From: a virus
Reading direction: 5' to 3' (one strand)
Virus record (IMG/VR): IMGVR_UViG_3300020183_000011
Length of the DNA stretch: 64,000 nucleotides
Shown here in pieces: positions 41,695 through 43,491 of the stretch. How positions within the stretch are numbered: position 1 is the stretch's first letter; every line of letters starts with the position of its first letter. The notes below the pieces were generated by a model. The model saw only the letters and a list, made by a program, of their open reading frames with translations. It was not told the origin of the DNA and searched no databases. The position numbers were made by a program, and so were the translations under genes.

Positions 41695-42132
41695 ATGTCT
41701 ATAGCAATGGTGTATTATGATTGGACACCTGATGCAATGTTAGAAGTTGACTTGATCGAACCAGATAACTTCCTCAAAGTCAGAGAAACTCTAACCCGCA
41801 TCGGTATAGCGTCTAGAAAAGACAAGAAGCTATTCCAGTCATGCCATATACTACATAAACAAGGTAAGTACTTCATCGTACACTTTAAAGAATTGTTTGC
41901 CCTTGATGGCAAAGAATCTGATATCTCTATGTCCGATATCGAGAGACGAAATGTCATAGCTGAATTACTACAAGATTGGGGTCTGCTTAAGATTTTAGAT
42001 AAATCCAAGGCAGAACCAAAGGCTTCTCTATCTCAGATCAAAGTTGTTTCATACAAAGAAAAATCTGAGTGGGAATTAGTACCGAAATATAACATCGGCG
42101 GTATTAAACGTAACGTTACTATTAATAACTAG
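41695..42132 (+). CDS. regA: Translational repressor RegA
   Basis: FLKVRETLTRIG, QSCHILHKQG.Y.IVHFKELF, LVPKY; late promoter at 41653-41660. Confidence 0.96.
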   Translation: MSIAMVYYDWTPDAMLEVDLIEPDNFLKVRETLTRIGIASRKDKKLFQSCHILHKQGKYFIVHFKELFALDGKESDISMSDIERRNVIAELLQDWGLLKILDKSKAEPKASLSQIKVVSYKEKSEWELVPKYNIGGIKRNVTINN

Positions 42133-42140
42133 GAGTTTTT

Positions 42141-42341
42141 ATGAGCATCAAACTTGATTTAACAATTGAAGAAATTAATACCATTCTTCGTTCTTTGGGT
42201 AAACACCCATTCGATGAGATCGTTGTATTAATCTCTAAAATTAAACAACAAGGTGAAATTCAACTTGCAGAGCAACAAAAATTAGCAGCAGAACAAGCTA
42301 CAGCTGCTGAACAAGCGCAATCAGAAACACCAGCTGAATAA
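42141..42341 (+). CDS. Small hypothetical protein
   Basis: AGGAG RBS; LTIEEINTIL..LGKHPFDEI. Confidence 0.65.
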   Translation: MSIKLDLTIEEINTILRSLGKHPFDEIVVLISKIKQQGEIQLAEQQKLAAEQATAAEQAQSETPAE

Positions 42342-42407
42342 TAACAGGTTTATTACTTTTTAATACTTTTAACTAGTCCTTTTTAATAAATATTGTATAA
42401 GTAATTA

Positions 42408-42436
42408 TGTACATTAAATCAAAGTCATGATATAAT
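42408..42436 (+). promoter_or_regulatory. TGTACA-N17-TATAAT promoter upstream of pqqA
   Basis: Motif seen directly. Confidence 0.75.
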
Positions 42437-42559
42437 GTATCTGTATGGTTGAATGATTGTACAAAGTTATATAGGCCTCAAGGTAGACCTTTATCTTATT
42501 GATATCTCTACTGACATGAGTTTATAAACGCAATATTTTATAAACAAAGGAGAACTACT

Positions 42560-42631
42560 ATGTGGACAAAACCAGCTGCAACTGAAATGCGCTTCGGTTT
42601 CGAAGTAACAATGTACGTAATGAACAAGTAA
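42560..42631 (+). CDS. pqqA: Pyrroloquinoline quinone precursor peptide PqqA
   Basis: Translates to [23 protein letters not shown] (23 aa) with the WTKP...R.GFEVT.Y signature and E-x3-Y; AAAGGAG RBS; own promoter and terminator. Confidence 0.95.
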
Positions 42632-42667
42632 TTGTTCTAGTACATGGACTGGGGATACTCGGTCGGC

Positions 42668-42699
42668 AAAGGGGACTTAAAATGTCCCCTTTATTTTTT
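42668..42699 (+). terminator. Intrinsic terminator after pqqA
   Basis: AAAGGGGAC-ttaaaat-GTCCCCTTT followed by ATTTTTT. Confidence 0.85.
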
Positions 42700-42703
42700 A
42701 CTA

Positions 42704-42732
42704 TGTACATTAATTAATAATTATGGTATAAT
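42704..42732 (+). promoter_or_regulatory. TGTACA-N17-TATAAT promoter upstream of bS21
   Basis: Motif seen directly. Confidence 0.75.
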
Positions 42733-42758
42733 GGGCATATTAGTCAAGGAGAATCAAA

Positions 42759-43016
42759 ATAGCTATACCAAATAAAAAGTTTAAACCAAGACCAGACGAA
42801 AGGCAAGGCCTTGCAGTAGACGTGCCTGATGGCCAGTTCGAGAAGGCTTTCAGGAAGTTTAGAAACAAAGTACAAGACTCTGGTCTTTTACAAGAGATAC
42901 GTGATCGTATGCAGTACGAGAAACCATGCATCGCGCGTAAGAAAGCCAAGAATCAATCTCGTAAGAGATGGCTTAAGAAAGTAGCATCTACAAAGTTACC
43001 ACCAAAACTATATTAA
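42759..43016 (+). CDS. rpsU: Ribosomal protein bS21 (probable ATA start)
   Basis: VDVPDGQFEKAFRKFRNKVQDSGLLQEIRDRMQYEKPCIARKK matches bS21 (V.V...fe.ALRRFK......G...E.R.R..YEKP). AGGAG lies 7 nt before an in-frame ATA at 42759. Confidence 0.88.
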   Translation: MAIPNKKFKPRPDERQGLAVDVPDGQFEKAFRKFRNKVQDSGLLQEIRDRMQYEKPCIARKKAKNQSRKRWLKKVASTKLPPKLY

Positions 43017-43026
43017 GGAGATCATA

Positions 43027-43089
43027 ATGGGTAATCGTGATAAGAAAAAAGAATCAAAAGGCAGACCTAAAAAAGATAAGGCAAAATAA
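43027..43089 (+). CDS. 20-aa highly basic peptide
   Basis: MGNRDKKKESKGRPKKDKAK; AAGGAG RBS at 43015-43020; stop overlaps the next ATG (TAATG). Confidence 0.65.
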   Translation: MGNRDKKKESKGRPKKDKAK

Positions 43090-43292
43090 TGGTAGCAAAG
43101 AATGACATCACTAGTGATAGCATCTTATCAAAGTCAGCCACAAAAGAATTTGATAAGAACTTTGATGCCATCGATTGGTCAGTTAAGTTAGACGCTCCAC
43201 AAGACGGAGACCAAAGACTTAACAATGAAGGCAAACTTGAACATTATTATGGAGGACAGTGGAATGCAACAGGACAAAAAGAACCGACCTGA
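43089..43292 (+). CDS. Hypothetical protein
   Basis: AKNDITSDSI.SK...FDKNFDAIDW; coupled ORF. Confidence 0.65.
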   Translation: MVAKNDITSDSILSKSATKEFDKNFDAIDWSVKLDAPQDGDQRLNNEGKLEHYYGGQWNATGQKEPT

Positions 43293-43491
43293 GTTACCAA
43301 GGGTCGACGTGCAAAAAGCAGTAAACGCTGTAGGTAACAGGTATTATATGATCTTGATGGCAGCACACATGGCCCGAGACATTACTAAACGAAGAGACTT
43401 CTTAGATCGTAAAGCAGAGAAGCTCCACTATTATGGCTATAAACCTATCAATCAAGCATTGCAGGATATTATAGATGACGCAGGATTATAA
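43264..43491 (+). CDS. rpoZ: RNA polymerase omega subunit (RpoZ)-like protein
   Basis: RVDVQKAVNAVGNRYYMILMAAHMAR...KPINQALQDI parallels RpoZ ([26 protein letters not shown]...K...ALREI); GGAGG RBS before ATG 43264. Confidence 0.75.
   Translation: MQQDKKNRPELPRVDVQKAVNAVGNRYYMILMAAHMARDITKRRDFLDRKAEKLHYYGYKPINQALQDIIDDAGL

What the first reader, a model, noticed from the sequence alone, without database searches (positions are those of the whole stretch)
42741..43016. Phage bS21 appears to initiate at a non-canonical ATA codon
The track's GTG (42822) has no SD and would cut off the conserved N-terminal beta-strand (GLAVDV). The frame is open back to a TAG at 42741 with no ATG, GTG or TTG. 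A perfect AGGAG (42747-51) sits 7 nt before an in-frame ATA (42759), giving MAIPNKKFKPRPDERQGLAVDVPDG.... AUA/AUU starts are discriminated against by IF3, as in infC autoregulation. Inference: synthesis of this initiation-related ribosomal protein responds to the IF3/30S state.
Basis: partly seen in the sequence, partly recalled or inferred. Interest (0 to 1): 0.7.

Follow-up and report, generated by a model that had tools for sequence, protein, structure and literature searches.

The report
Phage ribosomal protein starts at ATA
A lake phage's own copy of ribosomal protein bS21 has no normal start codon and almost certainly begins at the rare codon ATA behind a strong ribosome-binding site; many related phages keep this set-up unchanged, while sister phages carry ATG at the same codon but no binding site.

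Summary
The bS21 frame (Pfam PF01165) is open from TAG 42741. It has no ATG, GTG or TTG before GTG 42822. AGGAG (42747-51) lies 7 nt before ATA 42759.

Evidence that ATA is the start:
- In 16 distinct related coding sequences from at least 12 metagenomes, down to 57% protein identity and including marine ones, AGGAG + 7-8 nt + ATA GCT never changes. Synonymous sites elsewhere in the gene are saturated.
- Codons 2-21 are under purifying selection (dN/dS 0.15), so they are translated.
- GTG 42822 is GTA or GTC in many relatives.
- Sister phages have ATG at exactly this codon. They lack an SD and are coupled to an upstream ORF by a TAATG overlap.
- One lineage has ATT behind AAGGAG.
- Contigs from an independent lake run and from a drinking-water run show ATA.

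ATA initiation is therefore about 85-90% likely. It is inferred, not mapped experimentally.

The IF3-sensing idea is untested. In one in-vitro study of an optimised leader, AUA was only weakly IF3-sensitive, and the ATG sister forms do without a near-cognate start. A selected throttle on a strongly transcribed, strongly ribosome-binding early mRNA is the more economical reading.

In two related phage records, RNase H likewise starts at ATT behind AAGGAG. The scan noted this ATA start once more, on an overlapping window of the same genome.

The parts
42668..42701 (+). Intrinsic terminator of the upstream pqqA unit. It separates pqqA from the bS21 unit.
   Evidence: 9-bp stem with 5 GC pairs and a 7-nt loop, followed by a T run.
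42704..42732 (+). Sigma-70-type promoter of the bS21 unit: TGTACA, 17 nt, TATAAT, with TG before the -10 box. The predicted transcript start is near 42739-41.
   Evidence: 10 of 12 matches, and the same box pair stands before pqqA at 42408-36. A similar -35/-10 pair lies at the same distance in most ATA/ATT-class relatives, judged by eye. The transcript start is inferred, not mapped.
42741..42743 (+). In-frame TAG that closes the frame upstream.
42746..42751 (+). Shine-Dalgarno AAGGAG, 7 nt before ATA.
   Evidence: It is invariant in 12 distinct leaders, with predicted SD-antiSD pairing of -7.3 to -9.3 kcal/mol.
42759..42761 (+). ATA, the proposed initiation codon.
   Evidence: It is invariant in 16 distinct ATA-class coding sequences. 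ATG stands at the homologous codon in 13 of the first 25 sequences compared and in further loci of the wider set. Contigs of runs X11 and X17 show no variant here.
42759..43016 (+). bS21 coding sequence: 85 codons plus TAA.
   Evidence: Pfam PF01165 at E 1e-14. Solved bS21 chains match at E 9e-9. dN/dS is 0.15 for codons 2-21 and 0.05 for the rest.
42822..42824 (+). GTG used by automatic gene calling. Rejected as the start.
   Evidence: No SD precedes it. It is GTA or GTC in L003, L005, L007, L021-23, L135 and L052, and several relatives have no canonical start at all before residue 27. Public databases carry 64-aa truncated calls such as P0041 and P0042.
43028..43090 (+). 20-codon lysine-rich ORF with its own AAGGAG overlapping the bS21 stop. 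It probably belongs to the same transcript.
   Evidence: conserved in many relatives. In cluster P0007 it is fused in frame to bS21.

Best explanation
The phage bS21 gene is translated from AUA 42759. The mRNA comes from its own sigma-70-type early promoter. It has a leader of about 20 nt that is unstructured and A-rich, with a strong AAGGAG 7 nt upstream of the AUA. The SD holds the 30S subunit so that initiator tRNA can pair with the near-cognate AUA, giving an 85-aa bS21 with a basic N-terminal extension of about 15 residues. Selection keeps the weak codon. In combination with the strong SD and promoter it acts as a throttle, holding bS21 output well below what ATG would give and making that output depend on how stringently the cell checks start codons. 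Sister phages reach a comparable restraint differently: ATG at the same codon, no SD, and coupling to the stop of an upstream ORF. Shown here: the absence of any canonical start, nucleotide-level conservation of the SD and of ATA GCT, purifying selection on the extension, the homologous ATG, and the SD/start-codon trade-off. Inferred: initiation by fMet-tRNA at AUA, low efficiency, and the purpose of the throttle. The confidence given is for ATA being the start codon kept by selection; the throttle purpose alone I would put near 0.5.
For: 1. No canonical start lies between TAG 42741 and GTG 42822, and AGGAG lies 7 nt before ATA.
2. Among the first 25 sequences compared (the window and 24 IMG/VR relatives), 12 have AGGAG(A) + 7-8 nt + ATA GCT and 13 have ATG at exactly that codon.
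3. The wider scan gives 16 distinct ATA-class coding sequences, including a marine/estuarine lineage at 57-58% identity. All have ATA GCT. By contrast, none of the 36 amino-acid-invariant degenerate codon columns keeps a single codon, and only 2 of 82 third positions are invariant.
4. Codons 2-21 have dN/dS 0.15 at dS about 1.1, and Gly, Leu and Val upstream of the GTG vary synonymously.
5. The GTG is not conserved, and five unique loci (L005/L029, L023, L052, L054/L055) have no canonical start at all before residue 27.
6. SD pairing energy is -7.3 to -9.3 kcal/mol in 12 distinct ATA leaders and -3.0 to -6.8 in 10 distinct ATG leaders (Mann-Whitney p = 5e-5, though the leaders are not phylogenetically independent). 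ATG forms overlap an upstream ORF as TAATG, or follow an 11-codon uORF.
7. No sequence combines the AGGAG leader with ATG at this codon.
8. A 65-70% identity lineage has TTTACA, 17 nt, TATAAT, then AAGGAG, then ATT ATT, again with no canonical start before the GTG.
9. Melnitz bS21 (36% identity, ATG plus SD) carries a similar basic N-terminal extension.
10. The leader folds no better than shuffled sequence (z = +1.0).
11. A run X11 contig is identical over 42308-43165. A run X17 contig (drinking water, 2024) differs at 9 places over 42684-43048, none of them in the SD or the ATA.
12. Literature: AUA gives 1-2% of AUG in E. coli reporters (bioRxiv 10.1101/063800). A T4 rIIB AUG-to-AUA mutation cut translation by about 85% (cited in PMC5499595). 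E. coli ribosomes carrying a phage bS21 showed about 5% of wild-type in-vitro translation activity, so dosage may matter (PMC6375957).
Against: There is no direct mapping of the N-terminus or of the initiating ribosome. No transcript data cover the gene; the one RNA run covers only pqqA. In the window and some relatives the GTG exists, so a minor short isoform cannot be excluded there. The throttle reading rests on E. coli efficiencies, whereas in an optimised leader in vitro AUA worked about as well as AUG (PMC5499595). Expression might therefore not be low at all. The tree needs at least 5 ATA/ATG changes, and these are best read as recombination of a linked 5' module. The 12 versus 10 leaders are thus not independent samples. 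In one lineage (L188) a TAA-to-TGA change in the upstream stop creates an in-frame ATG two codons before the ATA, so some variants may start there.
Confidence: 0.85

Rival explanations
1. First reader's reading. The AUA start makes bS21 synthesis a sensor of IF3 level or 30S state, as the AUU start does for infC, possibly with feedback from phage bS21 on start-codon or SD selection.
For: AUA, AUU and AUC are the class of start codons that IF3 discriminates against, and infC autoregulation works this way (PMC5499595, section read). The codon is held at nucleotide level. A second gene, RNase H, in two related phage records begins at ATT behind AAGGAG with a similar leader, which hints at a small class of such genes. 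bS21 lies at the anti-SD platform. In Flavobacterium, rpsU with a strong SD is autoregulated through bS21-free ribosomes (PMC9976891).
Against: Nothing here measures a response to IF3. In vitro, a 10-fold IF3 excess lowered AUA mRNA by only 20-25% against more than 60% for AUU; nutrient limitation and ppGpp had larger effects (PMC5499595). Sister phages with ATG and no SD lack this sensor yet keep the gene.
Confidence: 0.2
2. ATA is the start, but the nucleotide-level invariance of the stretch around it mainly reflects an RNA operator for the phage RegA translational repressor, which is encoded 600 nt upstream. The codon is fixed because the protein-binding site is fixed.
For: A RegA homologue lies at 41695-42132 (PHROG 242, E 6e-60) and is 93-100% identical across these phages. 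T4 RegA sites are A+U-rich and unstructured, carry a 5' poly(A) tract and overlap the start codon; the SELEX consensus is aaAAUUGUUAUGUAA (PMC3014915). The bS21 leader is A-rich and unstructured, and codons 1-6 are nearly invariant in most ATA-class sequences.
Against: The likeness to the SELEX consensus is loose and of low information. L024 and L052 change codons 3-6 but keep the SD and ATA GCT. RegA sites of T4 normally include AUG. No binding was tested.
Confidence: 0.1
3. Translation starts at GTG 42822, as gene callers assume, giving a 64-aa protein. The open frame upstream is untranslated leader.
For: GTG is a canonical start and is present in the window and some relatives. Databases hold 64-aa calls.
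Against: No SD precedes it. The GTG is GTA or GTC in many relatives, and some have no canonical start before residue 27. The upstream 20 codons show dN/dS 0.15 and indels of whole codons only. A GTG start would delete the strand that aligns to residues 1-6 of solved bS21.
Confidence: 0.03
4. The ATA is an assembly error or a recent inactivating mutation of ATG, that is, a pseudogene.
For: ATG-to-ATA is a single transition, and relatives with ATG at this codon exist.
Against: ATA is present in 16 distinct sequences from at least 12 metagenomes and in contigs of two further runs, X11 and X17. The gene is under strong purifying selection. ATG never occurs with this leader.
Confidence: 0.01
5. The AUA is read by a dedicated phage-encoded or host initiator-like tRNA, or translation enters from an upstream ORF by coupling or frameshift.
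For: In L003 and L021-23 the ATA lies 2 nt after the stop of an upstream ORF, so re-initiation may help there.
Against: The window holds no tRNA genes. In the window a terminator and a promoter, not an ORF, lie directly upstream. The rest of the genome could not be searched.
Confidence: 0.03

Closest known systems
infC (IF3) of E. coli and relatives: conserved AUU/AUC start used for autoregulation
   Same: Both are genes for a component of the initiation machinery with a phylogenetically conserved near-cognate AUH start and no canonical alternative.
   Different: The codon here is AUA (AUU in one lineage) behind a strong, optimally spaced SD. The product is a ribosomal protein, not the factor that does the discriminating. 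No feedback is shown, and alternative ATG alleles coexist in sister phages.
rpsU of Flavobacteriales: bS21 gene with an extended SD, translated by bS21-free ribosomes (PMC9976891)
   Same: Both are bS21 genes whose initiation region stands out from the genome norm, with a strong SD used for control.
   Different: Flavobacterial hosts ignore the SD in general. This phage uses SDs widely: 18 of 38 AGGAG sites with an open frame of at least 45 codons downstream precede canonical starts. The oddity here is the start codon.
Phage-encoded bS21 of Pelagibacter phage HTVC008M, Methylophilales phage Melnitz and Bacteroidetes phages (PMC6375957, PMC9723584)
   Same: All are phage bS21 genes in large, aquatic phages. 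Melnitz bS21 (36% identity) also has a basic N-terminal extension.
   Different: Melnitz starts at ATG with an ordinary SD. Word searches of these papers found no mention of a start codon or of a non-canonical start.
T4 rIIB AUG-to-AUA laboratory mutants (cited in PMC5499595)
   Same: Both place AUA in a T4-type initiation region, where it still supports reduced translation.
   Different: That is a laboratory mutation with a defect. Here AUA is the natural, conserved state.

Membership tests
Ribosomal protein bS21 (Pfam PF01165) | Profile match above the curated cut-off | tested here: met
   54.3 bits against a cut-off of 27, E 1.1e-14.
Ribosomal protein bS21 (Pfam PF01165) | Sequence likeness to bS21 chains in solved ribosome structures | tested here: met
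   32 distinct chains at E up to 0.01, best 9e-9, query 26-77 on chain 11-62.
Ribosomal protein bS21 (Pfam PF01165) | Incorporation into 30S subunits | not testable with these tools
   Shown only for the HTVC008M protein in E. coli (PMC6375957).
Genes with a conserved near-cognate (AUH) start codon | No canonical start can give the conserved protein | tested here: met
   Five unique relative loci have none before residue 27.
Genes with a conserved near-cognate (AUH) start codon | The near-cognate codon and an SD at proper spacing are conserved among diverged relatives | tested here: met
   16 distinct sequences have AGGAG + 7-8 nt + ATA, and one lineage has ATT.
Genes with a conserved near-cognate (AUH) start codon | The region downstream of the codon is translated | tested here: met
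   dN/dS is 0.15 for codons 2-21, and sister phages have ATG at the homologous codon.
Genes with a conserved near-cognate (AUH) start codon | Initiation mapped at that codon (N-terminal peptide, toeprint or start-site profiling) | not testable with these tools
   No proteomic or ribosome-profiling data were available. The RNA run covers only pqqA.
infC-type IF3-dependent autoregulation | Expression from the near-cognate start changes with IF3 level or fidelity | not testable with these tools
   Literature only. AUA was weakly IF3-sensitive in vitro.
Flavobacterial rpsU SD-based autoregulation | The host or phage does not normally use SD sequences | tested here: not met
   18 of 38 AGGAG sites with an open frame of at least 45 codons downstream precede canonical starts in the window. 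pqqA and the 20-aa ORF have clear SDs.
T4 RegA operator | regA gene present, and an A+U-rich unstructured initiation region with a 5' A tract | tested here: inconclusive
   regA is present and the leader is unstructured and A-rich. Likeness to the SELEX consensus is only loose, and binding was not tested.

The most novel reading that the evidence does not exclude
Near-cognate AUH starts behind strong SDs (bS21, and RNase H in two related phage records) mark a small phage regulon. Its translation would be switched by the state of the initiation machinery: once phage bS21, with its N-terminal extension, sits on the 30S platform, it would change SD use or start-codon scrutiny and so feed back on its own AUA-started mRNA and on other AUH-started genes.
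Probability: 0.1. Interest if true: 0.8.

Novelty: new member of a known kind. Interest (0 to 1): 0.5.

Why it matters
Natural, conserved AUA start codons are very rare in bacteria and phages. This one sits in the most common phage-borne ribosomal protein, one that takes part in initiation itself.

Practical consequence: gene callers truncate this family to 64-68 residues or extend it through the promoter. Database entries, alignments and any expression construct built from them therefore lack the true N-terminus.

Biological consequence: the paired natural alleles form a ready-made experiment on how much phage bS21 a phage needs, and on whether its synthesis is tied to start-codon scrutiny. 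One allele has a strong SD with ATA, the other has no SD with ATG coupled to an upstream ORF, and the strong SD with ATG combination never occurs.

Tried and rejected
- Other near-cognate codons were rejected. ATC 42753 lies 1 nt from the SD and is not conserved. The second ATA at 42765 is 13 nt from the SD, and is ATT in L052 and ACT in L024.
- A second candidate, ATT at 535 on the minus strand, is the mirror of a repeat-rich plus-strand gene and not a gene.
- RegB-type cleavage of the GGAG was considered because the T4 consensus is GGAGRAYARAA (PMC3014915). No RegB family match turned up in four related records, one of them 99% complete. The control rang nowhere, so this is a weak negative.
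- The window holds no tRNA genes.
- No whole genome is held for this window, so the rest of the phage could not be searched, including its tRNA and its own rnh.
- The pattern scan of 185,579 cellular genomes found no relative, so nothing can be said about a cellular donor.
- The metatranscriptome run X24 covers only pqqA-like sequence, so it gives no evidence on transcription of bS21.
- Literature searches found no report of a non-canonical start in phage bS21. The library is incomplete.

Full report
**Observation.**
- TAG lies at 42741-43 and AAGGAG at 42746-51. A 7-nt spacer follows, then ATA at 42759-61.
- The frame stays open to TAA 43014-16, and the first canonical start in it is GTG 42822.
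- The 85-residue product from ATA matches Pfam Ribosomal_S21 at 54.3 bits against a cut-off of 27. It also matches solved bS21 chains, best E 9e-9.
- In that alignment query residue 26 lies on chain residue 11. Counting back without gaps, the GTG (residue 22) would delete the first six residues of a normal bS21, and ATA adds about 15 residues.

**Setting.**
- All genes in the window are on the plus strand, and the order is T4-like: sliding clamp, clamp loader gp44, gp62, RegA.
- A 23-codon pqqA follows (Pfam PqqA), then bS21, a 20-codon lysine-rich ORF, a weak RNA-polymerase-omega-like ORF and Hsp20.
- The only nucleotide matches in the phage collection are pqqA of Methylophilales phages. The nearest isolate bS21 is that of Methylophilales phage Melnitz at 36% identity. 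The host is therefore probably a methylotroph, and the runs that hold the stretch are lake-water metagenomes.
- A terminator (42668-92) ends the pqqA unit.
- A sigma-70-type promoter with a TG-extended -10 box (42704-32) precedes bS21. It is a twin of the promoter before pqqA.
- The predicted leader of about 20 nt plus the first codons folds no better than shuffled sequence (z = +1.0).

**Relatives: two forms.**
- A first scan of IMG/VR gave 26 loci at 72-90% identity. Read codon by codon, they fall into two forms.
- Counting the window, twelve of the 25 sequences have AGGAG(A), 7-8 nt, then ATA GCT, with no canonical start upstream.
- Thirteen have ATG GCT at exactly the homologous codon, but with a different upstream sequence.
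- Wider scans of metagenome and viral contigs raised the ATA form to 16 distinct coding sequences from at least 12 metagenomes. These include a marine/estuarine lineage at 57-58% identity.
- In all 16, AGGAG and ATA GCT are unchanged, while the spacer and the flanks differ.

**Strength of that conservation.**
- Among the 16 sequences, none of the 36 codon columns with an invariant degenerate amino acid keeps a single codon. Only 2 of 82 third positions are invariant.
- The Ile codon two places downstream does change, to ATT or ACT.
- Selection therefore acts on the nucleotides of the first two codons, not on an isoleucine.

**The stretch upstream of the GTG is translated.**
- Codons 2-21 have dN/dS 0.15 at dS about 1.1.
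- Gly, Leu and Val codons upstream of the GTG vary synonymously, and length differences are whole codons.
- Melnitz bS21, which starts at ATG behind an ordinary SD, has a similar basic extension.
- The GTG itself is GTA or GTC in many relatives, and five unique loci have no canonical start before residue 27.
- Public protein collections hold 64-68-residue truncated calls, or calls extended through the promoter. Current annotation of this family is therefore wrong at the 5' end.

**The ATG form.**
- Its ATG overlaps the stop of an inserted upstream ORF as TAATG, as in L006. In L011 and L013 it follows an 11-codon uORF that has its own AGGAG.
- Predicted SD-antiSD pairing is -3.0 to -6.8 kcal/mol in 10 distinct ATG leaders and -7.3 to -9.3 in 12 distinct ATA leaders (p = 5e-5).
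- The two forms are interleaved on the gene tree, which needs at least 5 changes. Each comes with its own linked codons 3-5. I read this as recombination of a 5' module, so the leaders are not independent samples.
- Even so, no sequence combines the AGGAG leader with ATG at this codon, although that is one transition away.
- A further lineage at 65-70% identity has a clean TTTACA, 17 nt, TATAAT promoter, then AAGGAG, then ATT ATT. It too has no canonical start before its GTG.
- In L188 a TAA-to-TGA change in the upstream stop creates an ATG two codons before the ATA.
- In L003 and L021-23 the ATA lies 2 nt after an upstream stop.

**Sequencing error.**
- This is excluded by the number of independent assemblies.
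- It is also excluded by contigs from other runs. An X11 contig is identical over 42308-43165. An X17 contig (drinking water, 2024) differs at nine places, none in the SD or the ATA.

**Is it a general habit of this phage?**
- No. In the window this is the only ORF with an SD-like motif before a near-cognate codon and no adjacent canonical start.
- The RNase H gene of two related records, one a 160-kb genome rated 99% complete, does open the same way. After a TAA come AAGGAG, 8 nt, then ATT ATA. There is no canonical start before its conserved N-terminal motif.
- This agrees with an unchecked note by another reader on this genome's own rnh. I could not inspect that gene, because no whole genome is held.

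**Mechanism.**
- The best-supported reading is initiation at AUA by initiator tRNA, made possible by the strong, well-spaced SD in an open leader.
- In E. coli reporters AUA gives 1-2% of AUG (10.1101/063800). An AUG-to-AUA change in T4 rIIB cut translation by about 85% (cited in PMC5499595).
- The pattern of a strong SD with a weak codon, or no SD with ATG, and never both strong, points to selection for restrained output.
- Such restraint would make sense if excess phage bS21 harms ribosomes. E. coli ribosomes carrying HTVC008M bS21 had about 5% of wild-type in-vitro translation activity (PMC6375957).
- In an optimised leader in vitro, AUA behaved much like AUG and lost only 20-25% at a 10-fold IF3 excess, while AUU lost more than 60%. 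Nutrient limitation and ppGpp mattered more (PMC5499595).
- A RegA operator overlapping the start could add to the nucleotide constraint. The likeness is loose.
- RegB cleavage at the GGAG finds no support, since related records contain no RegB.

**Comparison and novelty.**
- Phage bS21 is known (PMC6375957, PMC9723584), and conserved near-cognate starts are known (infC).
- I found no report of a non-canonical start in phage bS21.
- This is a new member of the class of genes with a selected near-cognate start. It has an unusually clear comparative signature and natural ATG counterparts.
- The start codon assignment is inferred from sequence comparison. Mapping the N-terminus or the initiating ribosome would settle it.

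Noticed in passing
L195:2385-2420 (minus strand) and the same place in L194: The RNase H gene of two related phage records has no ATG, GTG or TTG before its conserved N-terminal motif. After an in-frame TAA come AAGGAG, 8 nt, then ATT ATA. This is a second likely near-cognate start in this phage clade.
   Followed up: partly
window 43028-43090; protein cluster P0007: The 20-codon lysine-rich ORF directly behind bS21 has its own AAGGAG overlapping the bS21 stop. In one public protein cluster (20 member sequences) it is fused in frame to the C-terminus of bS21, which suggests the two act together.
   Followed up: partly
window 42560-42631, with promoter 42408-36 and terminator 42668-92: A stand-alone 23-codon pqqA (Pfam PqqA, E 6e-11) has its own promoter and terminator. 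It is 87-100% identical at protein level in nearly all related loci, and it is the only stretch with nucleotide matches to Methylophilales phages.
   Followed up: partly
window 41695-42132 and relatives L001-L055: The RegA translational repressor homologue is 93-100% identical across relatives whose neighbouring genes are only 45-80% identical. This is unusually strong conservation.
   Followed up: no
L006:2612-2986; L021:2516-2998; L188:416-898: The gap between pqqA and bS21 is an insertion hot spot. Relatives carry different small secreted glycine-rich or Rick_17kDa_Anti-like ORFs there, and the form of the bS21 start (ATG coupled, or ATA) goes with what is inserted.
   Followed up: partly
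window 43225-43491: An 88-aa ORF has a weak match to RNA polymerase Rpb6/omega (Pfam E 3.4e-4, below the cut-off). It is conserved in all related loci.
   Followed up: no
window 42408-42436 and 42704-42732: Two identical promoter box pairs (TGTACA, 17 nt, TATAAT with a TG extension) stand before pqqA and bS21. The TGTAC(A/T)TTAATTAA block recurs at the same place in several relatives, so it may be a phage-specific early or middle promoter element.
   Followed up: no
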